Shown here: in pieces, positions 3,465 to 55,864 of the stretch | How positions within the stretch are numbered: the stretch's first letter is position 1 | How the letters are laid out: each line of letters opens with the position of its first letter | Assembly (NCBI RefSeq): GCF_054482595.1 | Contig: NZ_CM137008.1 | Length of the DNA: 64,000 nt | Strand: one strand, 5' to 3' | Translations under genes and position numbers: made by a program | The notes under the pieces: model-generated | Told to the model about the DNA's origin: nothing | The model's database searches: none | Seen by the model: the letters and a program-made list of their open reading frames with translations, nothing else

Positions 3465-4160
3465 ATGTCCCGGTCAGCGAAACCTCAAAATGGTCGCCGC
3501 CGCTTTCTGCGCGATGTTGTTCGCACAGCAGGCGGGCTGGCTGCCGTGGGTGTGGCGCTGGGGTTACAACAGCAAACCGCACGCGCATCTGGCGTGCGGT
3601 TGCGCCCGCCCGGAGCCATAAACGAGAACGCCTTTGCCAGTGCCTGTGTGCGTTGTGGTCAGTGTGTTCAGGCTTGCCCTTACGACACCTTAAAACTGGC
3701 GACGCTGGCCTCTGGTCTGTCGGCGGGCACGCCATATTTTGTCGCACGGGATATTCCTTGCGAAATGTGTGAGGACATTCCGTGCGCCAAAGTGTGCCCG
3801 AGCGGTGCGCTGGATCGTGAGATCGAATCGATCGACGACGCGCGGATGGGGCTGGCGGTGCTGGTAGACCAGGAAAACTGTCTCAACTTTCAGGGGCTGC
3901 GCTGCGATGTTTGTTATCGCGAATGCCCGAAAATTGATGAGGCCATCACCCTGGAGCTGGAGCGCAACACGCGTACCGGTAAGCACGCCCGCTTTCTGCC
4001 GACGGTTCACAGCGACGCCTGTACCGGCTGCGGTAAGTGCGAAAAAGTGTGCGTGCTGGAACAACCGGCAATCAAGGTGTTACCGCTGTCACTGGCGAAA
4101 GGGGAGTTAGGTCACCATTACCGCTTCGGCTGGCTGGAGGGGAACAATGGCAAATCGTAA
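3465..4160 (+). CDS. napG: Ferredoxin-type protein NapG
   Basis: 231 aa, Tat motif RRRFLR, four Cys clusters; recognised as NapG. Confidence 0.93.
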
Positions 4161-5010
4161 ACGTGACGCCGGGCGCGAGGCGCTGGAGAAAAAAGGCTGG
4201 TGGCGCAGTCACCGTTGGCTGGTGTTACGTCGCCTTTGTCAGTTCTTCGTGCTGGGGATGTTTTTGAGCGGTCCGTGGTTTGGTGTGTGGATCTTGCACG
4301 GCAACTACAGCAGTAGCCTGTTATTCGACACCGTTCCGCTGACCGATCCGCTGATGACGCTGCAAAGTCTTGCCAGTGGTCATCTGCCTGCCACGGTGGC
4401 GTTGACCGGTGCGGTGATTATCACCGTGCTCTACGCCCTGGCGGGAAAGCGATTATTTTGCAGCTGGGTCTGCCCGCTGAACCCGATTACCGACTTAGCG
4501 AACTGGTTACGCAGGCGCTTTGACCTCAATCAGTCTGCGACGATCCCTCGCCACATTCGCTACGTGCTGTTGGTGGTCATTCTGGTGGGATCAGCCTTAA
4601 CCGGCACGCTCATCTGGGAATGGATCAACCCCGTTTCCCTGATGGGGCGTAGCCTGGTAATGGGCTTCGGCAGCGGCGCGCTGCTTATTCTCGCGCTGTT
4701 TTTATTTGATCTACTGGTCGTTGAACACGGCTGGTGCGGGCACATTTGTCCGGTTGGCGCGCTTTATGGCGTGCTGGGTAGCAAAGGTGTGATTACCGTT
4801 GCGGCCAGCGATCGGCAGAAATGTAACCGCTGTATGGATTGTTTTCATGTTTGCCCGGAACCGCATGTGCTACGTGCCCCGGTGCTGGATGAACAAAGCC
4901 CGGTGCAGGTCACCAGCCGCGATTGCATGACGTGCGGTCGCTGCGTGGATGTCTGTTCTGAGGATGTATTTACAATAACTACACGATGGAGTTCGGGAGC
5001 GAAATCATGA
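4147..5010 (+). CDS. napH: Membrane-bound ferredoxin-type protein NapH
   Basis: 287 aa, hydrophobic N-terminal half and C-terminal Cys clusters; recognised as NapH. Confidence 0.93.
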
Positions 5011-5456
5011 AAAGCCATGACCTGAAGAAAGCGCTGTGTCAATGGACGGCGATGCTGGCCCTGGTGGTAAGCGGCGCGGTTTGGGCGGCTAATGGCGTCG
5101 ATTTTAGCCAGTCGCCGGAAGTATCCGGGACGCAGGAAGGGGCCATTCGGATGCCAAAAGAGCAGGATCGGATGCCGCTGAACTATGTGAATCAGCCGCC
5201 AATGATCCCGCATAGCGTTGAAGGTTATCAGGTAACGACCAATACCAACCGCTGCTTGCAGTGCCACGGTGTCGAAAGCTATCGCACCACTGGCGCGCCG
5301 CGTATCAGTCCTACTCACTTTATGGACAGCGACGGCAAAGTGGGCGCGGAAGTGGCTCCGCGTCGTTATTTCTGTCTGCAATGTCACGTACCGCAGGCCG
5401 ATACCGCGCCAATCGTGGGGAATACCTTTACCCCATCAAAAGGTTACGGGAAATAA
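5007..5456 (+). CDS. napB: Dihaem cytochrome c NapB
   Basis: Start set at MKSHDLKK (internal Met of the 156-aa ORF); two CxxCH haem motifs (CLQCH, CLQCH); recognised as NapB. Confidence 0.9.
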   Translation: MKSHDLKKALCQWTAMLALVVSGAVWAANGVDFSQSPEVSGTQEGAIRMPKEQDRMPLNYVNQPPMIPHSVEGYQVTTNTNRCLQCHGVESYRTTGAPRISPTHFMDSDGKVGAEVAPRRYFCLQCHVPQADTAPIVGNTFTPSKGYGK

Positions 5457-5465
5457 GAGGTTATT

Positions 5466-6068
5466 ATGGGAAATTCTGACCGTAAGCCTGGTCTGATTAA
5501 GCGCCTGTGGAAATGGTGGCGTACCCCCAGCCGTCTGGCGCTGGGGACGCTGCTGTTGATCGGTTTTGTCGGCGGCATCGTCTTCTGGGGCGGCTTTAAC
5601 ACCGGGATGGAAAAAGCCAATACCGAAGAGTTCTGCATTAGCTGCCACGAAATGCGTAACACGGTGTATCAGGAATACATGGATTCCGTGCACTACAACA
5701 ACCGTAGCGGCGTCCGTGCGACCTGTCCGGATTGTCACGTTCCGCACGAGTTTGTGCCGAAGATGATACGCAAGCTCAAAGCAAGTAAAGAGCTGTATGG
5801 TAAAATTTTTGGCGTTATTGACACGCCGCAGAAATTTGAAGCTCATCGTCTGACGATGGCACAGAATGAGTGGCGGCGCATGAAGGACAATAACTCGCAG
5901 GAGTGCCGTAACTGTCACAACTTCGAGTATATGGATACAACCGCCCAGAAATCGGTTGCCGCGAAGATGCATGACCAGGCGGTGAAAGATGGGCAAACCT
6001 GTATTGATTGCCATAAAGGGATAGCGCACAAGCTGCCCGATATGCGTGAAGTCGAGCCAGGTTTTTAA
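5466..6068 (+). CDS. napC: Tetrahaem cytochrome c NapC (NapC/NirT family)
   Basis: 200 aa, N-terminal TM anchor and four CxxCH motifs; recognised as NapC. Confidence 0.94.
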   Translation: MGNSDRKPGLIKRLWKWWRTPSRLALGTLLLIGFVGGIVFWGGFNTGMEKANTEEFCISCHEMRNTVYQEYMDSVHYNNRSGVRATCPDCHVPHEFVPKMIRKLKASKELYGKIFGVIDTPQKFEAHRLTMAQNEWRRMKDNNSQECRNCHNFEYMDTTAQKSVAAKMHDQAVKDGQTCIDCHKGIAHKLPDMREVEPGF

Positions 6069-6080
6069 CAAGGTTATTGC

Positions 6081-6704
6081 GTGGGTATGCTTGAAGCCAG
6101 AGAGTTACTTTGTGAGCGGGATGAACGAACCTTATTTAGTGGCTTGTCATTTACGCTGAACGCAGGAGAGTGGGTACAAATCACCGGTAGCAACGGCGCG
6201 GGGAAGACAACGCTTCTCCGTTTGCTGACGGGGTTGTCTCGCCCTGACGCAGGCGAGGTTCTCTGGCAAGGGCAGCCCTTGCATCAGGTACGTGACAGCT
6301 ACCATCAAAACCTGTTATGGATAGGCCATCAGCCGGGGATCAAAACCCGGCTGACGGCGTTAGAAAATCTGCACTTTTATCATCGCGATGGCGATACCGC
6401 ACAATGTCTGGAAGCCCTGGCGCAGGCCGGGCTTGCCGGATTCGAAGATATTCCGGTAAATCAACTTTCTGCCGGGCAACAACGCCGCGTCGCTTTAGCG
6501 CGTCTGTGGCTGACCCGTGCCACGTTATGGATCCTCGACGAGCCTTTTACCGCGATTGACGTCAACGGCGTCGATCGTCTGACCCAGCGTATGGCGCAGC
6601 ATACGGAGCAGGGGGGGATTGTGATTCTGACTACCCACCAGCCGCTCAACGTTGCTGAAAGTAAAATTCGCCGCATTTCACTGACGCAAACGAGGGCTGC
6701 ATGA
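6081..6704 (+). CDS. ccmA: Haem exporter ATP-binding protein CcmA
   Basis: 207 aa, Walker [13 protein letters not shown] signature [11 protein letters not shown] start. Confidence 0.93.
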
Positions 6705-7363
6705 TGTTCTGGCGCATTTTCCGTCTTGAGCTGCGCGTAGCGTTTCGCCATAGCGCCGAAATCGCCAACCCGCTGTGGTTCTTCCTGATTGTAATTACCC
6801 TTTTTCCGCTCAGTATCGGTCCGGAGCCGCAACTGCTGGCGCGTATTGCACCGGGCATTATCTGGGTTGCTGCGCTGCTTTCATCCTTGCTGGCGCTGGA
6901 ACGACTGTTCCGTGACGATTTGCAGGACGGCAGTCTTGAACAATTGATGTTGTTGCCGTTACCCTTGCCCGCCGTTGTGCTGGCGAAGGTGATGGCGCAC
7001 TGGATGGTAACCGGTCTGCCGTTACTCATCCTTTCGCCACTGGTAGCAATGCTACTGGGAATGGATGTTTATGGCTGGCAAGTGATGGCGCTGACGCTGC
7101 TGCTGGGAACGCCTACGCTTGGCTTTCTCGGTGCACCGGGCGTGGCGCTGACAGTGGGACTTAAGCGCGGTGGTGTGCTGCTCAGCATACTGGTGTTACC
7201 GCTGACTATCCCATTACTCATCTTTGCCACCGCCGCGATGGACGCGGCTTCTATGCATTTGCCCGTTGACGGGTATCTGGCAATTTTAGGCGCGTTGCTG
7301 GCAGGCACCGCGACATTAAGTCCTTTTGCGACGGCGGCAGCGTTACGAATCAGCATTCAATAA
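6701..7363 (+). CDS. ccmB: Haem exporter membrane protein CcmB
   Basis: 220-aa polytopic membrane protein overlapping ccmA stop; recognised as CcmB. Confidence 0.92.
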
Positions 7364-16136: not shown

Positions 16137-16197
16137 TAACAGAAAATAAACAGGCTGTGATGTGTCACGGTCTGTTTATCGAATTAATTGCAGATAT

Positions 16198-16228
16198 AAA
16201 AAAACCAACCGTAAGGGTTGGTTTTTTT
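16198..16228. terminator. Bidirectional rho-independent terminator (original proL/yejO terminator)
   Basis: Stem CCAACC/GGTTGG with loop GTAAG, flanked by an A-run upstream and T-run downstream. Confidence 0.65.
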
Positions 16229-16285
16229 GGGATTTTTGGTCGGCACGAGAGGATTTGAACCTCCGACCCCCGACACCCCATGACG
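16229..16285. repeat. attL: 57-bp direct repeat containing the displaced 3' 48 nt of tRNA-Pro
   Basis: Identical base-for-base to 55706..55762; positions 16237..16284 are the reverse complement of the tRNA-Pro 3' end including CCA. Confidence 0.85.
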
Positions 16286-16654: not shown

Positions 16655-18406
16655 TCATTCTAATGCCTTCTCAATGTTTGTATTTATTTCTGATAAACTA
16701 TTAATTACACCGTCAAATACAAAATCAAGAGCGTTACTATAACCAATTGCTAAAGTAGCTGAATCAAATCCTAGTTTTGCTAAATGCTCAATTGATTTGT
16801 TTACTGCTTCATGAGCTTCAGCATTTCTTAAATCATTATTTATAAAAAACGATGCCACTTTTTTATTTTGAGTTTTAAAATCTGCAAATTCTGTGGCGTG
16901 CTTAAGTACAGATGAGTCTTCATTCTGTTCAATAATTGGCTCGATAAGGTTAAGTAATGATTGAAGTAGTTTCAGAGTTTGGAATTTTTCGATGTCTGAT
17001 TTATTAACACCCATTGCAATTAATAATTTTTTTAAAGAGCCTGATTTAATCTTATTTAAAATCTCATTAATAGTCTTACATCTATTCAAAAAATCCGGTT
17101 CTTGCATGTCATTTGGCGCAACAAATGCTAGCTTCTGCAATACTGGATAGTTAGAGATTCCTTCTGATTCTAACTCTGTGCGATTAATTTCTAAAATGTC
17201 TGCATTGGATAAAGTAACACCAATACTTCTACCAAGTGCTACAAGATTATCGCTAAGTCTTGCTAGTTCTCTAGCGAATTTAAATGTTTTAGATACAATA
17301 TGTTCTCCGCTTAAATCATTTTCAGTGATTTGGTTTGGATCCTTAGCATAATCAAAAACATGATAAACCTCCTCTTCAGGAATTCCTCGATACAGCTCAT
17401 AAAACGGAATTCTGACTAAGTTTCTTCCAACCCTGATGCAATCCCTAAAGGACCATTGTCCACCGTAGCTTGGAGCAACCCTATAAGAATAGCCGTCATA
17501 AAATGGAATAGCATCATATGAAGAATCTTTTTCATATTTAGTAAGGAAAGAGTCATTAACCAAGACATATTCATTGTTTCTGATGTCTTTGGCTCTTGAA
17601 CTCGTCATAGGAGTATCATATCCCGGCCATATTAATTCATCTATATTTAATTTTTTACAAAGTTCAGGCTGAACAGATTGTACACTTCCCCATGCTTGCA
17701 ATAATATATTGTCCCCATTATCTACTATCTCAAAATCTATCCAAGGCAAATCAAACTTGAAATGTTTTGACCCAGACAATAAGTTAATTACTTCCGTCGT
17801 TCTTTGAATACGTGCTTCATAGTAAAAAACACGTACACCAACATAATTTCTCATCCAGAGGTATTTTCTTAGATAATCATTACGCATTGTCCATTTTACA
17901 TCTTTATTACTTCTAAAGTAATACTCGCTTGACACATCCCCTTGTGCGACTCCATAATCGGGCAAGCTTACCTCATCGAAAATGACTTTTTGCTCAGTGT
18001 CACCTATAAGTCTGGGTTTTAGACCAAGCATCATCCATACATCTTCAGCTAAAAAAAATGAAAAGTGAGAACTATCACCCCAAGAAGCTACAATATACTT
18101 ATAACCTGAAATTGATAAACTATAATCTCTTGCTCCGCCTTTAGACCTACAGTCAGGAGTCGAAAATGAAACTAAACCATTAGTAGACTCCTGGAGAACT
18201 TTGATATTATTGATATCTTCTTGTGGTACGGTAGCCATTGTCATATGAGCACACTCATGATTATCTTTAAAAAGATTTTTTTCGTATCTATGTGTGACAA
18301 TGACCTCTTTCTGTGGATTAGTAATATCCTCTATAGATAATAAATCTTTAAGACCTTGAGGGATCTGATCTACTGGTAAAGGTAATTGTGATATATAGTC
18401 AATCAT
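16655..18406 (-). CDS. Hypothetical 583-aa protein (prophage cargo between attL and int)
   Basis: Long uninterrupted ORF in an AT-rich segment with its own AT-rich upstream region; no motif I can assign (no Walker A, HNH or similar). Confidence 0.6.
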   Translation of the reverse strand: MIDYISQLPLPVDQIPQGLKDLLSIEDITNPQKEVIVTHRYEKNLFKDNHECAHMTMATVPQEDINNIKVLQESTNGLVSFSTPDCRSKGGARDYSLSISGYKYIVASWGDSSHFSFFLAEDVWMMLGLKPRLIGDTEQKVIFDEVSLPDYGVAQGDVSSEYYFRSNKDVKWTMRNDYLRKYLWMRNYVGVRVFYYEARIQRTTEVINLLSGSKHFKFDLPWIDFEIVDNGDNILLQAWGSVQSVQPELCKKLNIDELIWPGYDTPMTSSRAKDIRNNEYVLVNDSFLTKYEKDSSYDAIPFYDGYSYRVAPSYGGQWSFRDCIRVGRNLVRIPFYELYRGIPEEEVYHVFDYAKDPNQITENDLSGEHIVSKTFKFARELARLSDNLVALGRSIGVTLSNADILEINRTELESEGISNYPVLQKLAFVAPNDMQEPDFLNRCKTINEILNKIKSGSLKKLLIAMGVNKSDIEKFQTLKLLQSLLNLIEPIIEQNEDSSVLKHATEFADFKTQNKKVASFFINNDLRNAEAHEAVNKSIEHLAKLGFDSATLAIGYSNALDFVFDGVINSLSEINTNIEKALE

Positions 18407-50567: not shown

Positions 50568-51494
50568 ATGCATCGTATAGACACGAAAACCGCGCAAAAG
50601 GATAAGTTCGGCGCGGGTAAGAACGGTTTTACCCGTGGTAACCCCCAGACAGGCACGCCTGCCACCGATCTGGATGATGACTACTTTGACATGTTGCAGG
50701 AAGAGCTCTGCAGCGTGGTGGAGGCATCCGGTGCCAGCCTGGAGAAGGGGCGGCATGACCAGCTGCTTACCGCGCTTCGTGCGCTGCTGTTAAGTCGCAA
50801 AAATCCGTTTGGCGATATCAAATCGGACGGCACGGTGAAAACGGCTCTTCAAAACCTTGGTTTGGGAGATACAAGCGGATACGTGGGACGCCGGCTGAGT
50901 ACCCGGGTTTTCACGTCATCAGGTACGTACACCCCGACGCCAGGAACAAAACGGATCAGGGTCACAATAACGGGCGGCGGTGGCGGAGGGGGCGGCTGCA
51001 AGGCTATATCCAATAATGAAACGTTTTTCGGTGCTGGCGGTGGGGCCGGTGGAACAATAATTTCAATAATGACCCCGACACAGAATAGTTATCCAGTCAC
51101 TATCGGCGCAGGTGGGGCCGGTGGTGTTAGTGCGACGAACGGCACCAGGGGCGGGAATAGCGTATTCGCATCGTTAATTGCTCCTGGTGGCGCAGGCGGC
51201 GGAAAGTCAGGAGTCACAAACACAAACGGTGGTAACGGCGGCGTGCCAAGTACTGGCGGTATCAACATCATTGGTGGAAATGGAGGCGACGGTCAGTCCG
51301 GAAATATCGGCGTCAGCGGTGAAGGCGGAACATCGTACTGGGGGGGCGGTGGACGCGCAGGCGCTGGCGGTGGTGTTAGTGGTAAGGCATATGGTTCAGG
51401 TGGCGGTGGCGCATACGATGCCGGTTATAGCGGAACCAGTATGACAGGCGGGAAAGGTGCTGCTGGGATTTGTATTATCGAGGAGTTTGCATAA
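50568..51494 (+). CDS. Tail fibre protein (constant N-terminus plus glycine-rich variable C-terminus in active orientation)
   Basis: 308 aa; conserved N-terminal about 95 aa, then Gly-rich repeats ([26 protein letters not shown]); inversion crossover site lies inside at 50852..50869. Confidence 0.8.
50852..50869. repeat. Invertase crossover site (left), AAACC-TT-GGTTTGGGAGA
   Basis: hix/gix-like core AAACC-NN-GGTTT; 17 of 18 nt match the reverse complement of 52678..52695. Confidence 0.65.
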
Positions 51495-51904
51495 TGAATG
51501 CGTCATATGCAGTTATTGAAAATGGGATGGTTGTGAATGTCATTGTCTGGGATGGCGAGGCTGAATTCACAGTGCCGGATAATCAGCAGCTCATTGATAT
51601 TTCTGATATCAGTGAGCATCCCGGAATCGGCTGGGGGTATTCAGACGGGGTATTTACTGCGCCGCTCCCTCCGGAACGTTCTCATGATGAACTGGTAGCT
51701 GACGCTGAACAGAAAAAACAGTCGCTGATAGACGCAGCAATGGCCAATATCAGCGTGATTCAGTTAAAGCTGCAGGCCGGGCGCAAACTGACGCAAGAAG
51801 AAACTACCCGACTTAACGTTGTGCTGGATTACATTGACGCGGTGACAGCAACTGATACCAGCACCGCGCCAGATGTCATCTGGCCTGAACTGCCGGAGGC
51901 GTAG
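51494..51904 (+). CDS. Tail fibre assembly protein (Tfa), active orientation
   Basis: ATG overlaps fibre stop (TAATG) with AGGAG RBS; C-terminal conserved Tfa tail (W/PELPE); mirrored by a convergent Tfa paralogue. Confidence 0.75.
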   Translation: MNASYAVIENGMVVNVIVWDGEAEFTVPDNQQLIDISDISEHPGIGWGYSDGVFTAPLPPERSHDELVADAEQKKQSLIDAAMANISVIQLKLQAGRKLTQEETTRLNVVLDYIDAVTATDTSTAPDVIWPELPEA

Positions 51905-52316
51905 GCCATTCAATATCTGGCCCACTGGAAGTATCGACCAGCTCCAGTGCGTCCAGATAATCCAGCCACAAATTATATTGCGCCAGTTCCTCACCTTTCA
52001 GACGACCAATAGCCGCTTTACCAGCCCATTGTTTACTGTTCATATAATCGTTAGCCTGATTAATCAATTGCTGCTTTTCCAGTTCGGCTGCAGCAATCTG
52101 TTCCTCATGTGTTGGTGGTGGAATTTCAGACCATGCAGGAAAACCATTTTCTCCAGCGATACGGATTTTTCCTTTCGGCGGTAATCCGGAAAACTCAATA
52201 TACGCTTGCTCATCAACTTCAACAGCATCATCTGGCCATGAGTCAGCTTGAGTGTAATCCTCTTTCATTTCCAGTGGATAGAAAGAGTTTGTAGTCGCGG
52301 AATATATGTAATTCAT
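51876..52316 (-). CDS. Tail fibre assembly protein (Tfa'), alternative, in inverted orientation
   Basis: 146 aa; convergent with tfa; C-terminus DIEWPTPPAVQAR similar to the active Tfa. Confidence 0.7.
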   Translation of the reverse strand: MNYIYSATTNSFYPLEMKEDYTQADSWPDDAVEVDEQAYIEFSGLPPKGKIRIAGENGFPAWSEIPPPTHEEQIAAAELEKQQLINQANDYMNSKQWAGKAAIGRLKGEELAQYNLWLDYLDALELVDTSSGPDIEWPTPPAVQAR

Positions 52317-52337: not shown

Positions 52338-52700
52338 TTAACAGCCTAACGCTAAAAATGAAGCGCCGAGACCTGGAGTACTGGCTCTGGATATAAATTT
52401 AACCGGGTCGGAACTAAAACCTGCGCAGGCAATATAACCAACAGACCCGCTATCTGGTGTGTAGTCTTGTGAGACCAAAACACGCAGACATCGGTTTGGA
52501 AATGCAATCGGAAAATGGGTTACCACATCCTGTGCAATGCCTGGTGCGCCGATTGAGCCCCACTGAAGAATAAAACCAGATGGTAATTTTTGATATCCAG
52601 TACCTGAAACAGAAAGCGTGAAGCTACCCATATCAGGTATCTGATTCGTCCCTGTCCCCACATTCCTTTTTGCCGCTTCTCCCAAACCAACGTTTATGAA
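52338..52700 (-). other. Alternative tail-fibre variable C-terminal coding segment (promoterless, inverted orientation)
   Basis: Open frame on minus strand from the right crossover site to 52338, Gly/Ser-rich like fibre tips; would be fused to the constant fibre N-terminus after inversion. Confidence 0.6.
52678..52695. repeat. Invertase crossover site (right), inverted relative to 50852..50869
   Basis: Reverse complement AAACGTTGGTTTGGGAGA matches the left site with one mismatch. Confidence 0.65.
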
Positions 52701-52756
52701 AATGCAGAAATAACAAGCAAATGGCATCATTCCTGCTTTTGTCAGGGAGATCTATC

Positions 52757-52885
52757 ATGCTTATTGGTTATGTACGCGTATCAACAAATGACCAGAATAC
52801 CGATCTACAACGCAATGCGCTGAACTGTGCAGGGTGTGAGCTGATTTTTGAAGACAAGATAAGCGGTACAAAGTCCGAGACCTAG
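52757..52885 (+). pseudogene. Truncated serine DNA invertase (Pin/Gin/Hin family), N-terminal 42 codons only
   Basis: MLIGYVRVSTNDQNTDLQRNALNCAGCELIFEDKISGTKSET then stop; matches the invertase N-terminus including the catalytic Ser region; remainder replaced by unrelated AT-rich DNA. Confidence 0.8.
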
Positions 52886-52980
52886 GGCTGACACTGCTGT
52901 TCTTGATGCAAATTAAAGGATTTAATAGTGAGTAGCGGCCTTACTAATGTAAGGCCGCTATAATCATTTTATTAATTGCA

Positions 52981-54930
52981 TTAATCGTGTTTTGGCCATA
53001 CTTTCAATGCAATTTCCCCCAACTTTTTACCCCGCTCCAGGATTTCATCCTCATCCCATTTATCCTTAACTATAAGTGGAATGTTCAGTCGTAGATTGGT
53101 GTGGACGATGAGAGCATCACGTTTTTTCAGAAATACAGCATTCTGAACAGAACGGTTTACGCTAAGGTTAAGCAAAGTTAGATTTCCCAACGTAGCTATC
53201 GCTTGTTGCCGTTTCCTTACCAGTAGCTGTTCAGGGGTAAGATCGGTTCCAGACAGAACAATTTGGTTCAATACCGTAGCATCTGAATTTGTCACCATAT
53301 GACCATTTTCGAGAGGCCAACAGGAAAACCAACTTTGAGGCATAAGATGATCGATATCGAGATTGGAAAGATTTGGACCATCAGGCTTCTCTGTCTTCAC
53401 TTGGCGACAAAGTTCTCTTTCAAGTTCCGTTAACATTGAGCGCATTTTCGGTGCGTCGAGCCTGCCAGGATAAAGTGGAGCATTGATGCAAGCATTGAGA
53501 AATTCTGAGTCACCAGGCCAACGTGAGGCTTCGCCATTTAAGCTATTGAGGATATTACGTAACTCAACACTGGAAATTTCCGTTTTAGACAAGTGCCGCA
53601 ATACATTCATAAATACATTGTTGTAATTCTTTGGCGTCAGGCCACATACGGCTCTTCGTACTACGTAGGAGACAAGATCATTATACATGGCTGCTTTCTC
53701 ATCATCAGCGATGTTAGCTATCGAAATGAACAAAGCAAGCGGATAAAGTGTCGTCACATCATAGTCTGCGATGCGATATCCAAAGTGTGAGATGGGGGTT
53801 GTGCCAAAACCATCAACCAATTCTTTATATTGTGATGCATATTGTTTGAGGCGCTTTACTTGCAGATCTGCTCGTTGTGAAGACAAGTCCTTACTTACAT
53901 AATCACGATACTCATTGTAAAGGCGAGACAGATCAATTTCACGCTGCCTTTCTGATTGCAATGTCGCATGTACTAGCCACTCCATGCGTGGTTTATTAAT
54001 ACGTCCACGGCGTTGCTTTTCCGACCAGTATTTATCTTCAAAGCTCTTCCACTCATTTTCATATAATTCAATAGCATTAATATTTTCATGCTCAGCGCAC
54101 ATAAAGATATAGTTGCGAATAAGATCCGTGGCATGAAGTTCCGCCCCTCGCCCATTTAATGTTTCAAAAATTATTTGGGCATCATCTTCAGCTTCGAGAA
54201 ATATGCTTACCAGTTTCAGATCTGTTAAGACAGCCTCAATTAGAGCTACAGCATTTTCTTGTGGTGAGTGGTTTTCTATTTTAATCCATTTTATAAAGGC
54301 TTCAGTAAAAAAACATAATGCTTCTAGTGATGGCGGGTGATTAAAATGCTTACGCAACGTACCATGCTGCGTGAAACTATCAGAGAATACGTCCCGGAGA
54401 TCGTCAATATTTTCAACATTAAAACTTTGAATAAAATGAGTTTGATCCCGAAAAGTTGGCCATAGTTTGAAGCGTTCTACTTCTTTATTTCGCATTGTGT
54501 CTTCGTTTGAGTTTTTCAGGCAAGGCGAAATGAGAGCCTCTAAGCTGAAAAGATCCGTAGCACGTAATGCTAATCGGATGGATGCCAGAACATATTGAAG
54601 AGTGGTCAATCGTTGCTGACCATCAATAATATGTATGGAATCTACACCTAATAATCCTTTTTTTGATTGAGGTTCCAGTACAACCGCACCAAGGAAATGG
54701 GGAGTTGGTTTTGTACCCGAGAGCCGGGATTGTGCTTTCTCTAGGATATCCTCCAGTAGAGCTGACCATTGGTCTTGCTGAGTCCATACATAGGCACGTT
54801 GATAGAATGGAACACAGTATTGTCGGCGGTCTTGAAAAAGTTGTTGGACAGTTAGCGTCTCGGATTTCATGGTATACCTGTAAGCGACATTGTACAAAAG
54901 TGAGGAGTTAATCTGATTTAGAACAATCAT
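52981..54930 (-). CDS. GmrSD-like type IV restriction endonuclease family protein (N-terminal DUF262, C-terminal DUF1524/HNH-like)
   Basis: 649 aa; DUF262 motifs (YCVPFYQRAYVW, IIDGQQRLTTL) and C-terminal His-Me finger region (LDIDHLMPQSW ... NLTLLNLSVNRS); AT-rich. Confidence 0.75.
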   Translation of the reverse strand: MIVLNQINSSLLYNVAYRYTMKSETLTVQQLFQDRRQYCVPFYQRAYVWTQQDQWSALLEDILEKAQSRLSGTKPTPHFLGAVVLEPQSKKGLLGVDSIHIIDGQQRLTTLQYVLASIRLALRATDLFSLEALISPCLKNSNEDTMRNKEVERFKLWPTFRDQTHFIQSFNVENIDDLRDVFSDSFTQHGTLRKHFNHPPSLEALCFFTEAFIKWIKIENHSPQENAVALIEAVLTDLKLVSIFLEAEDDAQIIFETLNGRGAELHATDLIRNYIFMCAEHENINAIELYENEWKSFEDKYWSEKQRRGRINKPRMEWLVHATLQSERQREIDLSRLYNEYRDYVSKDLSSQRADLQVKRLKQYASQYKELVDGFGTTPISHFGYRIADYDVTTLYPLALFISIANIADDEKAAMYNDLVSYVVRRAVCGLTPKNYNNVFMNVLRHLSKTEISSVELRNILNSLNGEASRWPGDSEFLNACINAPLYPGRLDAPKMRSMLTELERELCRQVKTEKPDGPNLSNLDIDHLMPQSWFSCWPLENGHMVTNSDATVLNQIVLSGTDLTPEQLLVRKRQQAIATLGNLTLLNLSVNRSVQNAVFLKKRDALIVHTNLRLNIPLIVKDKWDEDEILERGKKLGEIALKVWPKHD

Positions 54931-55673
54931 TTTATTTTGCTATGATACAACGTATTTGTTACCGGTTAAGCAAAAAACGCGTCTGAACGCTGACGTTTTA
55001 GGGCTTTACTGGTTATTCTTTCTTATCTCTTCATCATCCCATCGGCATCCTGTCGAGGTTGTTGACTTGTTGTTATTTATTTTGTCTAGGCGCTGTTTAA
55101 TTATTATTGATAGAACTGATGGTGAGAGGTGATTGAAACCGTAGGCACGTCGTTTGCAAGGACGTGCTACGACTGGCTGGTGAATTTCCGATAGTGCGAG
55201 TATTGAATGATTTCCTACGTGCTAACTAGTGAACAAACAACTCTTCAGTAGACTCTCAGGTATCATTCAGAGTTTCCTGAACGAAAGTTTTAGCTCAATC
55301 TTTATCTGCAGTATGTCTAACTGAAAAACTATCGTTGCTGGTGGCTTTTACGATCATCTCCACATCGTCATAACGCTTGCCAATGTGTTGGGTTAATTCT
55401 TCCTTTAACGCGTCCACAGCGCCGTTTGGCATTTGGTCATTTGTCTTTGGCTATGGAGATCTCAATACGCATAACACTTCTTTTGTACTGCGTTTGTAGA
55501 CAGTATTATTCTTATCTGTGTAAATAAACAGTATCAAGACTTCGTTTTAGCTGCATAAGAAAAAAGAGATGGATACATTCGGAAAGCTTTTGATGGTGGT
55601 AGGCTAAGTGAATAGCCTAAAGGTGTTTTACCCCAATTATTCCCCGGTATTTCTCCGCATAAAAAACAATCAT

Positions 55674-55703
55674 AAAAAAACCAGCCATAATAGGCTGGTT
55701 TTT
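55674..55703. terminator. Bidirectional rho-independent terminator (phage-borne homologue of the proL terminator)
   Basis: Stem CCAGCC/GGCTGG with loop ATAATA flanked by A-run and T-run; lies just 3' of the restored tRNA-Pro. Confidence 0.65.
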
Positions 55704-55705
55704 AA

Positions 55706-55762
55706 GGGATTTTTGGTCGGCACGAGAGGATTTGAACCTCCGACCCCCGACACCCCATGACG
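55706..55762. repeat. attR: 57-bp direct repeat (overlaps 3' part of intact proL)
   Basis: Identical to 16229..16285. Confidence 0.85.
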
Positions 55763-55790
55763 GTGCGCTACCAGGCTGCGCTACGTGCCG
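55714..55790 (-). tRNA. proL: tRNA-Pro (anticodon GGG)
   Basis: 77 nt; reverse complement reads CGGCACGTAGCGCAGCCTGGTAGCGCACCGTCATGGGGTGTCGGGGGTCGGAGGTTCAAATCCTCTCGTGCCGACCA with T-loop GGTTCAAATCC and CCA end. Confidence 0.92.
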
Positions 55791-55864
55791 ACTCGTGGCT
55801 GTTAATACTACCGTTTTCCACACCGATTGCAAGTAAGATATTTCGCTAACTGATTTATAATTAA

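What the first reader, a model, noticed from the sequence alone, without database searches (positions are those of the whole stretch)
52757..54930. GmrSD-like type IV restriction gene replacing most of the tail-fibre invertase gene
The Pin-family invertase ORF stops after 42 codons (MLIGYVRVSTNDQNTDLQRNALNCAGCELIFEDKISGTKSET) and is followed by unrelated AT-rich DNA carrying a convergent 649-aa DUF262/DUF1524 protein (DGQQR motif plus C-terminal His-Me finger), the architecture of GmrSD/BrxU-type modification-dependent restriction enzymes. A defence gene appears to have been acquired at the prophage right end at the expense of the invertase.
Basis: partly seen in the sequence, partly recalled or inferred. 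Interest (0 to 1): 0.55.

Follow-up and report, generated by a model that had tools for sequence, protein, structure and literature searches.

The report
Known GmrSD restriction gene in prophage
This is the already-characterised GmrSD enzyme, which cuts the sugar-modified DNA of T4-like phages; it is carried as cargo at the end of a common E. coli prophage, next to the dead stump of the gene that used to flip the prophage's tail-fibre switch, so it is real but ordinary.

Summary
Window 52757-52885 is the first 41 codons of a Pin-family invertase, identical to K-12 PinE residues 1-41, followed by T and a stop. No other invertase sequence occurs in the 64 kb. A convergent gene at 52981-54870(-) has Pfam GmrSD_N and GmrSD_C domains and matches PADLOC mREase_IV end to end. 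It is not merely GmrSD-like. The 629-aa product starts at M21 of the 649-aa ORF. It is 98.7% identical to the published UTI89 "UT" GmrSD and 93.3% identical to the biochemically characterised Eco94GmrSD and CT596 GmrSD, with the D507/H508/N522 catalytic residues conserved. He et al. 2015 already placed these genes in SfII-like prophages directly after the tail-fibre genes. Bair et al. 2007, as cited by Machnicka 2015, noted the invertase neighbour.

New details are minor:
- The invertase/gmrSD junction is the same in all 39 loci examined, so it arose once.
- The true breakpoint is near codon 49, and this lineage carries an extra 1-nt deletion.
- The tail-fibre crossover sites are intact, and one near-identical strain has the segment cleanly inverted.
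- The slot after pin is a variable cargo site that elsewhere holds McrA, PD-T4-3, a type II RM system or gtr genes.

Verdict: already known, low interest.

The parts
16229..16285 (.). attL: a 57-bp exact direct repeat of the 3' part of tRNA-Pro, marking the left end of the ~39.5-kb prophage
   Evidence: Pattern search and exact-repeat extension. The repeat is 0 expected by chance.
50568..51494 (+). Tail-fibre gene in its current configuration: a constant N-terminal part joined to a glycine-rich variable C-terminal part inside the invertible segment
   Evidence: ORF list. RefSeq annotation of relatives names it StfP or a glycine-rich domain protein.
50852..50869 (.). Left crossover site (pix/gix-like) inside the tail-fibre gene
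   Evidence: An 18-nt inverted repeat, 94% complementary to 52678-52695. The inversion end point in strain 50EVA maps here.
51494..51904 (+). Tail-fibre assembly gene of the expressed orientation
   Evidence: ORF list and annotation of relatives.
51876..52316 (-). Alternative tail-fibre assembly gene, in the silent orientation
   Evidence: ORF list and annotation of relatives.
52338..52686 (-). Alternative tail-fibre C-terminal exon (gp53-like), in the silent orientation
   Evidence: ORF list. It becomes the 3' part of the tail-fibre gene in strain 50EVA.
52678..52695 (.). Right crossover site (pix/gix-like), 70 bp upstream of the invertase ATG
52757..52905 (+). Pin-family serine-invertase remnant. 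Codons 1-41 are intact. A 1-nt deletion follows, giving TAG at 52883-52885. Decayed homology continues to about codon 49. The C-terminal ~135 codons are absent.
52932..52961 (.). Hairpin with a 13-bp stem lying between the convergent invertase stump and gmrSD. It is probably the terminator of the cassette.
   Evidence: Terminator scan. The hairpin is conserved in all aligned alleles, with a few single-base stem differences.
52981..54870 (-). gmrSD: a 629-aa single-chain type IV modification-dependent restriction endonuclease, UT-type allele, identical to RefSeq WP_000834400.1
54871..55137 (-). Upstream region of gmrSD that travels with the cassette. It contains a weak sigma-70-like site at 54969-54942. 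The in-frame ATG at 54930 is probably not used.
   Evidence: The promoter match is no better than chance.
55229..55474 (-). DinI-like pseudogene with two in-frame stops and a disrupted N-terminus. It forms the conserved right flank of the cargo slot.
   Evidence: tblastn and RefSeq annotation of relatives.
55706..55762 (.). attR core: the 57-bp repeat overlapping the 3' end of tRNA-Pro
55714..55790 (-). tRNA-Pro(GGG), proL, the integration target. yejM follows at 55865-57625(-).
   Evidence: ARAGORN, Rfam and annotation.

Best explanation
Window 52981-54870(-) encodes an intact allele of GmrSD, the prototype type IV modification-dependent restriction endonuclease. It is carried as a single-gene cargo cassette of about 2.2 kb at 40.6% GC. 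The cassette comprises a terminator hairpin, the gene and about 270 bp of upstream DNA. It lies at the right end of an SfII-like myovirus prophage integrated in tRNA-Pro (proL).

Mechanism, by homology with enzymes that are 93-99% identical. The N-terminal DUF262/ParB-like NTPase domain (DGQQR motif) and the C-terminal DUF1524 His-Me-finger nuclease (D507, H508, N522) together recognise and cut DNA containing glucosyl-5-hydroxymethylcytosine or 5-hydroxymethylcytosine. Cleavage is stimulated by NTP. The lysogen is thereby protected against T-even phages. The allele here is of the UTI89 'UT' type. That type is reported to be insensitive to the T4 inhibitor IPI* and to act on T2 and T6 rather than T4.

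History of the locus. The cassette replaced the invertase from about codon 49 onward, in one ancestral event. The junction has since spread among related prophages at different att sites. The tail-fibre inversion switch keeps both crossover sites but has no invertase of its own. It can therefore change orientation only rarely, presumably through a Pin-family invertase supplied in trans.

What is shown: domain content, near-identity to characterised enzymes, catalytic residues, purifying selection, the junction and its universality, the prophage ends, and inversion between strains.

What is inferred: substrate range, IPI* insensitivity, expression in the lysogen, and the trans-acting invertase.
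For: Family and identity:
- Pfam GmrSD_N 7e-34 and GmrSD_C 2e-19.
- PADLOC mREase_IV at 1418 bits, with model positions 1-629 of 629 matched.
- 621 of 629 residues identical to UTI89 GmrSD and 587 of 629 identical to Eco94GmrSD and to CT596 GmrSD, using the sequences in Fig. S1 of PMC4437046.
- D507, H508 and N522 are at the same positions as the residues whose alanine mutants abolish Eco94GmrSD activity.

The gene is under selection and widespread:
- dN/dS is 0.14-0.23 against three allele classes.
- The exact protein is seen on at least 1000 contigs.
- The module is present in 298 of 5426 complete E. coli genomes.

Published location:
- He et al. state that Eco94, UTI89 and APEC O1 gmrSD lie in SfII-like prophages directly after the tail-fibre genes, and that the enzyme cuts glc-5hmC and 5hmC DNA with ATP stimulation.
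- Machnicka et al., citing Bair 2007, give tail-fibre assembly genes and an invertase as the CT596 neighbours.

Junction and prophage:
- The pin remnant lies at a fixed 227-228 nt from the gmrSD stop in the window and all 38 other loci. These are 34 IMG/VR contigs (two holding only part of the gene) plus MLI107, UTI89, 50EVA and APEC O78.
- The prophage ends are set.
- The invertible segment is exactly inverted in strain 50EVA, which has the same dead invertase.
Against: - No experiment bears on this exact allele. It differs from the UT enzyme at 8 residues, including H524 (R in UT) two positions after the catalytic N522.
- The purified UT enzyme was inactive in vitro under all conditions tried.
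- UTI89 also carries PD-T4-3 about 1 kb beyond the gmrSD/DinI' module and a second GmrSD homologue. Strain-level phenotypes are therefore not cleanly attributable to this gene.
- No convincing promoter was found. The one sigma-70-like match is within chance expectation.
- Many close relatives carry an IS2 163-167 bp upstream. 50EVA has an IS inside the gene. Expression may be altered or selected against in some lineages.
- No sequenced phage record carries this DNA.
Confidence: 0.9

Rival explanations
1. The protein is a DUF262/DUF1524 enzyme of a different functional type. It might be BrxU-like with broad specificity for modified DNA, or SspE-like and sensing phosphorothioate, or part of a multi-gene system, rather than a stand-alone GmrSD that targets glc-hmC.
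For: PADLOC also reports weaker matches to Orf5, HEC-06 and SspE models over the shared domains. The only solved-structure match by sequence is a distant DUF262 protein, 9jfl, at E = 9e-8.
Against: These matches score 35-262 bits, against 1418 bits for mREase_IV. The protein is 93-99% identical to the prototype GmrSD enzymes. No BREX, Ssp or Dnd genes flank it; the neighbours are an invertase stump, a DinI pseudogene and a tRNA.
Confidence: 0.04
2. The gene is a decaying or silenced passenger that no longer provides defence in this lysogen.
For: It sits among pseudogenes: the invertase stump, the DinI-like pseudogene, and yejO outside the prophage. IS elements lie just upstream of it or inside it in many relatives. 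Over-expressed GmrSD is toxic. The purified UT enzyme was inactive. No clear promoter was found.
Against: The reading frame is intact and all catalytic residues are present. dN/dS is about 0.2. The identical protein occurs on at least 1000 contigs. In this window there is no IS, and the upstream region is contiguous.
Confidence: 0.1
3. The invertase is really complete, and the early stop is a sequencing or assembly frameshift.
For: A 1-nt deletion relative to sister alleles does create the stop at codon 43.
Against: Correcting the frameshift adds only about 7 recognisable codons. Residues 50-184 of Pin have no counterpart anywhere in the window. The same truncated junction is found in 38 independent loci and is annotated as partial in RefSeq.
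Confidence: 0.01
4. gmrSD first landed downstream of an intact invertase, as mcrA does in e14. The invertase 3' end was then lost in a separate, unrelated deletion. On this reading the defence gene did not itself displace the invertase.
For: In e14, and in the UTAK-10 and ET490 prophages, cargo genes sit after an intact pinE. Other prophages show pin truncated at other positions next to other cargo.
Against: No locus with intact pin plus this gmrSD clade was seen among the 38 other loci or the 13 gmrSD-bearing rows of an evenly spaced sample of complete genomes. This holds even for alleles about 9% divergent at the DNA level. If there were two events, both predate all sampled diversity.
Confidence: 0.2

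Closest known systems
EcoUTI89GmrSD ('UT enzyme', UTI89_C2960, WP_000834402.1)
   Same: 621 of 629 residues are identical. The local context is the same: truncated recombinase, gmrSD, then a DinI-like pseudogene at the tail-fibre end of an SfII-like prophage.
   Different: There are 8 substitutions: V46A, S108F, A428S, N443S, V498G, Y515F, R524H and S559A, written UT to window. The UTI89 element lies next to ssrA and is followed by PD-T4-3. The window element is at proL with no PD-T4-3.
Eco94GmrSD and CT596 GmrSD (the prototype, biochemically characterised)
   Same: 93.3% identity, the same length, the same D507/H508/N522 and DGQQR motifs, the same pin-remnant junction and the same kind of prophage location.
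   Different: The first ~190 codons and the upstream DNA are much more divergent than the rest: dS is 0.67 against 0.05, and the upstream region is about 72% identical. The CT/Eco94 type is inhibited by T4 IPI*. The UT type is reported not to be.
BrxU (GmrSD-family enzyme embedded in BREX loci)
   Same: The same two-domain DUF262 + DUF1524 architecture and the same modification-dependent cleavage (PMC8565348 and PMC12409352 listed; PMC12373910).
   Different: It is a distant relative and did not reach E = 0.001 in the sequence search of solved structures. It lies inside a BREX operon, not in a prophage cargo slot. It has broader substrate tolerance.
McrA of cryptic prophage e14 (E. coli K-12)
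   Same: It is also a type IV, HNH-type, modification-dependent nuclease. It occupies the same slot, directly after the pin invertase at the right end of a prophage with the same ymfQ/stf/tfa/pin module.
   Different: It is an unrelated protein that targets 5-methylcytosine. The invertase pinE is intact, and the element is integrated in icd.
PD-T4-3 (GIY-YIG anti-T-even defence protein)
   Same: It occupies the same cargo slot in sister prophages. It follows an intact pinE in UTAK-10 and ET490, lies at proL in LD91-1, and lies beside gmrSD in UTI89.
   Different: It has a different fold and family, and it is absent from this window.

Membership tests
GmrSD family (type IV restriction endonucleases) | N-terminal DUF262 / GmrSD_N (ParB-like NTPase) domain with the DGQQR motif | tested here: met
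   PF03235 at 7.4e-34, full model 1-199 matched. DGQQR lies at residue 83 of the 629-aa protein.
GmrSD family (type IV restriction endonucleases) | C-terminal DUF1524 / GmrSD_C His-Me-finger nuclease domain with the catalytic D-H...N residues | tested here: met
   PF07510 at 2.2e-19. D507, H508 and N522 are at the positions mutated in Eco94GmrSD.
GmrSD family (type IV restriction endonucleases) | Full-length sequence relatedness to experimentally characterised members | tested here: met
   98.7% identity to UTI89 GmrSD and 93.3% to Eco94/CT596 GmrSD with no gaps. PADLOC mREase_IV scores 1418 bits over the whole model.
GmrSD family (type IV restriction endonucleases) | Cleaves glc-5hmC or 5hmC DNA but not unmodified DNA, with NTP stimulation | not testable with these tools
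   Known for Eco94GmrSD. Purified UT enzyme was inactive in vitro. This allele has never been tested.
GmrSD family (type IV restriction endonucleases) | Restricts T-even phages in vivo, with a defined sensitivity to an injected inhibitor (IPI*, Ip2 or Ip3) | not testable with these tools
   Literature only. The UT-type behaviour is assumed from 98.7% identity.
Pin/Gin/Cin/Hin serine DNA invertases | Complete catalytic domain plus C-terminal helix-turn-helix DNA-binding domain (about 184-190 aa) | tested here: not met
   Only residues 1-41 (up to about 49) are present. Nothing else in the window matches Pin. It is a pseudogene, not a functional member.
Din-type invertible tail-fibre segment (Mu G, P1 C, e14 P) | Two inverted crossover sites flanking alternative tail-fibre C-termini and assembly genes, next to the invertase gene | tested here: met
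   An 18-nt inverted repeat at 50852-50869 and 52678-52695, with convergent stf/tfa pairs between the arms.
Din-type invertible tail-fibre segment (Mu G, P1 C, e14 P) | The segment actually inverts | tested here: inconclusive
   Strain 50EVA has the exact reverse complement between the two sites, with the same dead invertase. However, only 1 near-identical genome and 3 overall show that orientation, against 146 in the window orientation. The timing and the enzyme are unknown.
Din-type invertible tail-fibre segment (Mu G, P1 C, e14 P) | Fis-dependent recombinational enhancer in the 5' part of the invertase gene | tested here: inconclusive
   In the Hin system the 65-bp enhancer lies about 100 bp from a hix site. 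By position it would fall inside the retained stump. A strict Fis-consensus scan found no site there, and the consensus is too degenerate to decide.

The most novel reading that the evidence does not exclude
The interval between the tail-fibre invertase and the DinI/att end of e14/SfII-like prophages may be a dedicated, recurrently exchanged slot for defences against modified-DNA (T-even) phages. About a quarter of complete E. coli genomes carry such a prophage. The slot holds McrA, GmrSD, PD-T4-3 or type II RM systems. Cargo swaps repeatedly break inside pin, at codon ~49 here and at ~79, ~134 or leaving a C-terminal remnant elsewhere. The retained 5' stump would keep the Fis enhancer. Trans-acting Pin paralogues could then still flip the tail-fibre switch after its own invertase has been sacrificed.
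Probability: 0.35. Interest if true: 0.35.

Novelty: already known. Interest (0 to 1): 0.13.

Why it matters
The finding adds little that is new. GmrSD is the founding type IV enzyme against glucosyl-hmC phages. Its prophage location after the tail-fibre genes and beside an invertase is already published.

The practical value is annotation. RefSeq calls this gene only a "DUF262 domain-containing protein", yet it is a UT-type GmrSD present in about 5% of complete E. coli genomes, including APEC O78 lineages. That is relevant to the choice of T-even phages for therapy or typing.

The side observations could seed a small comparative study. They are the single ancestral pin/gmrSD junction, the orphaned but still invertible tail-fibre switch, and a right-end cargo slot that collects anti-T-even nucleases. 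None of them is surprising given known prophage defence hotspots.

Tried and rejected
- **NCBIfam:** no model hit the GmrSD protein. Only a weak XisF match to the invertase stump appeared.
- **Phage collection:** a megablast search found no phage record carrying this gmrSD DNA. Only tail-fibre, invertase and DinI pieces matched.
- **Bair & Black 2007 papers:** the two primary papers could not be retrieved. What they say about the invertase neighbour is known only through Machnicka et al..
- **Rfam:** a scan of 52600-55900 found only the tRNA and one sub-threshold chance match.
- **Promoter scan:** the number of sites was no higher than in shuffles, so no promoter is claimed.
- **Fis consensus scan:** uninformative.
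- **649-aa reading from ATG 54930:** rejected. There is no Shine-Dalgarno sequence, and RefSeq, PADLOC and the expressed enzymes all start at M21.
- **Breakpoint exactly at 52878:** considered, because blast against intact pinE ends there. It was revised to about 52905 after sister alleles proved to stay in frame to codon ~49.
- **Diversifying selection in the N-terminal third:** considered and rejected. dN/dS there is 0.12, so the pattern is recombination mosaicism, not positive selection.
- **Other cargo ORFs in the window:** PADLOC and Pfam were negative for 16655-18406 and PADLOC was negative for 28108-30310.
- **Structure prediction:** not run, because 93-99% identity to characterised enzymes makes it unnecessary.
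Full report
**1. What is in the sequence**

The ORF at 52757-52885(+) reads MLIGYVRVSTNDQNTDLQRNALNCAGCELIFEDKISGTKSET followed by a stop. Its first 41 residues are identical to residues 1-41 of K-12 e14 PinE, which is 184 aa long. tblastn of the full PinE against all 64 kb finds only 52757-52888. The missing three-quarters of the invertase is therefore truly absent, and a frameshift is not hiding it.

A 649-codon ORF lies on the opposite strand at 52981-54930. Pfam assigns GmrSD_N (PF03235, 7.4e-34) to residues 28-276 and GmrSD_C (PF07510, 2.2e-19) to residues 471-639. The PADLOC model mREase_IV matches residues 21-649 to model positions 1-629 of 629 at 1418 bits. RefSeq annotates the same gene in other genomes as a 629-aa "DUF262 domain-containing protein", WP_000834400.1. 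There is no ribosome-binding site before the upstream ATG. The product therefore starts at M21, with its ATG at 54870.

The cassette is 40.6% GC. The rest of the prophage is 50.1% and the chromosomal flank is 51.1%.

**2. Where it sits**

- ARAGORN finds one tRNA, tRNA-Pro(GGG), at 55714-55790(-). yejM follows it.
- A 57-bp exact copy of the tRNA 3' end lies at 16229-16285 and repeats 55706-55762.
- The element is thus a prophage of about 39.5 kb integrated in proL. It has an integrase near attL, lambdoid regulatory genes and Mu-like tail genes.
- Its right end carries a Mu G / e14 P-type invertible tail-fibre segment. This comprises convergent stf/tfa pairs between 18-nt inverted crossover sites at 50852-50869 and 52678-52695.
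- After the segment come, in order: the invertase stump, a 13-bp-stem hairpin at 52932-52961, gmrSD, about 270 bp of upstream DNA, a DinI-like pseudogene with two in-frame stops, and attR.

**3. Identity of the gene**

Supplementary Fig. S1 of He et al. 2015 (PMC4437046) gives the sequences of CT596 GmrSD, Eco94GmrSD and UTI89 GmrSD. The window protein aligns without gaps to all three:

| Enzyme | Identical residues | Identity |
|---|---|---|
| UTI89 "UT" GmrSD | 621/629 | 98.7% |
| Eco94GmrSD | 587/629 | 93.3% |
| CT596 GmrSD | 587/629 | 93.3% |

D507, H508 and N522 are in place. Alanine mutants of those residues abolish Eco94GmrSD cleavage. DGQQR is at residue 83.

The exact protein is on record from at least 1000 contigs. 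The module 52700-55300 is at least 80% covered in 298 of 5426 complete E. coli genomes. dN/dS against three allele classes is 0.14-0.23, so the gene is maintained by selection.

**4. Mechanism (inferred by homology)**

Eco94GmrSD cleaves T4 DNA carrying glc-5hmC and T4gt DNA carrying 5hmC. ATP stimulates the cleavage, and unmodified DNA is spared. The enzyme restricts T4 lacking IPI* more than a million-fold.

The UT enzyme is reported to be insensitive to IPI*. It does not restrict T4 but does restrict T2, T6 and other T-even phages.

Recent work shows that T4 Ip1, Ip2 and Ip3 each neutralise a different GmrSD variant. CT596 GmrSD represents cluster CLS_006 there. At 93% identity the window enzyme would most likely fall into that cluster; this is my inference, not a tested assignment.

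I therefore expect the window enzyme to protect the lysogen against T-even phages in the UT manner. Three caveats apply:

- Purified UT protein was inactive in vitro.
- The window allele differs at 8 residues, including H524 where UT has R, two positions after N522. H524 is the residue found in the active Eco94 enzyme.
- UTI89 also carries PD-T4-3 about 1 kb beyond the gmrSD/DinI' module and a second GmrSD homologue. Strain-level phenotypes are therefore not cleanly assignable to this gene.

**5. The invertase junction**

Blast against intact pinE genes stops at window 52878. Alignment with the closest longer allele, from TUM12357, is perfect up to 52876.

I examined 34 IMG/VR contigs (two hold only part of the gene) together with MLI107, UTI89, 50EVA and APEC O78. 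In all of them, as in the window, the pin ATG lies 227 or 228 nt beyond the gmrSD stop. In the CT/Eco94-type alleles the stump stays in frame and reads ...SGTKSESLGLTLLFLMQIK. This still resembles Pin ...SGTKSERPGLKKLLRTL up to about codon 49. The UT-type alleles, including the window, lack one G after 52878, which creates TAG at codon 43.

The junction therefore arose once, at about pin codon 49 (window ~52905). The frameshift came later. An evenly spaced sample of the complete-genome hits agrees: all 13 gmrSD-bearing rows, at 90.6-100% identity, align continuously from the pin stump into gmrSD.

On the other side, homology with a gmrSD-less sister prophage at proL (LD91-1) resumes at about 55138. 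Other gmrSD alleles share sequence up to about 55215.

**6. Is the switch dead?**

Both crossover sites are intact. Strain 50EVA is 99.9% identical in the flanks and has the same stump. It carries the 1.8-kb segment as an exact reverse complement, with the exchange inside the crossover sites. Inversion has therefore happened in a lineage that lacks its own invertase, presumably through a Pin-family enzyme acting in trans. Cross-complementation among Gin, Cin, Pin and Hin is established knowledge; I did not test it here.

Orientation is nevertheless strongly skewed. 146 complete genomes show the window orientation of this segment. Three show the inverted junction, and only one of those is near-identical. 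The genomes are not independent, because many belong to related lineages. The skew suggests a largely locked switch with rare flips.

In the Hin system the 65-bp Fis enhancer lies about 100 bp from a hix site. By position it would fall inside the retained 148-bp stump. A Fis-consensus scan was uninformative, so this remains conjecture.

**7. The slot is a variable cargo site**

The ymfQ-stf module occurs in 1399 of 5426 complete genomes. The sampled right ends were as follows:

| Strain / element | Invertase | Cargo after it |
|---|---|---|
| K-12 e14 | pinE intact | McrA, another type IV nuclease |
| UTAK-10 | pinE intact | PD-T4-3, then a type II RM pair |
| ET490 | pinE intact | PD-T4-3 |
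| LD91-1 (at proL) | no invertible segment | acyltransferase plus PD-T4-3 |
| DG342-2 | none annotated | gtrABC-like operon |
| LR-50 | cut at about 134 codons | autotransporter |
| TUM12357 | cut at 79 codons | 365-aa unknown protein, then an intact DinI |
| Strain 1428 | only a partial helix-turn-helix CDS, possibly a C-terminal invertase remnant (not tested) | none annotated before DinI |

"A defence gene acquired at the expense of the invertase" is therefore one instance of a general pattern.

**8. Comparison with what is known, and novelty**

He et al. 2015 state that the Eco94, UTI89 and APEC O1 gmrSD genes lie in SfII-like prophages immediately downstream of the tail-fibre genes. Machnicka et al. 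2015, citing Bair et al. [quoted passage not shown] The enzyme, its family, its mechanism and its genomic setting are all published.

What I could not find in the text I could read is an explicit statement of three points:

- The invertase is a stump with a single conserved breakpoint.
- The switch is still found in both orientations.
- The slot also holds McrA, PD-T4-3 and RM systems.

These are incremental, and they fit the known behaviour of prophage defence hotspots.

Noticed in passing
window 55033-55037 (equivalent site in APEC O78, L011:3238-4569): An IS2 lies 163-167 bp upstream of the gmrSD start, on the same strand as gmrSD, in APEC O78 and in most of the closest complete genomes (22 of the 26 best hits were split by it). 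The overlap between the two aligned pieces is 5 bp, consistent with a target duplication. The IS2 could either silence the gene or drive it.
   Followed up: partly
L009 (strain 50EVA) 3804-6815: An IS3-family element has replaced the first ~39 codons of gmrSD in 50EVA. This is the same strain whose tail-fibre segment is inverted relative to the window.
   Followed up: partly
window 54300-55215 versus L030 and L040: gmrSD is a recombination mosaic. Against CT/Eco94-type alleles, synonymous divergence is 0.67 in codons 1-190 but 0.05 in codons 191-629, and the upstream DNA is only about 72% identical. dN/dS in the divergent part is 0.12, so this is not positive selection. The region may carry the IPI*-sensitivity determinant.
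   Followed up: partly
L004 (UTI89) 4004-5900: UTI89 carries PD-T4-3 (PADLOC 7e-137) about 1 kb beyond the gmrSD/DinI' module. The module is followed there by a remnant of the proL 3' end, even though the element lies next to ssrA. This suggests a tandem or composite island, and it confounds strain-level assignment of T-even restriction to the UT enzyme.
   Followed up: partly
L010 (TUM12357) 4058-5888: A different prophage has pin cut after 79 codons. The stump is followed by a 365-aa protein with a hydrophobic N-terminus and no PADLOC hit, and then by an intact DinI. It may be an uncharacterised cargo or defence gene in the same slot.
   Followed up: partly
window 55229-55474 (-): The DinI-like gene next to attR is a pseudogene with two in-frame stops and a damaged N-terminus. 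RefSeq flags it as frameshifted with an internal stop in MLI107, UTI89, LD91-1, 50EVA and APEC O78, so the inactivation is old.
   Followed up: yes
window 16655-18406 (-): A 583-aa ORF lies between attL and the integrase gene. It has no significant Pfam domain and no PADLOC match. The corresponding position in MLI107 holds a different 289-aa hypothetical gene, so the left end is also a variable cargo slot.
   Followed up: partly
window 28108-30310 (-): Two overlapping reverse-strand ORFs (395 and 344 aa) lie between the late-regulator region and the lysis genes. Neither has a PADLOC match. In MLI107 the equivalent position holds a hypothetical protein and a 'nucleoid-associated protein'. This may be another moron pair.
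   Followed up: partly
window 55676-55703 versus 16197-16228: The terminator hairpin downstream of tRNA-Pro is supplied by the phage at attR. It differs from the displaced chromosomal copy at attL by paired substitutions that keep the stem. This is a small natural example of compensatory change in a tRNA terminator.
   Followed up: no
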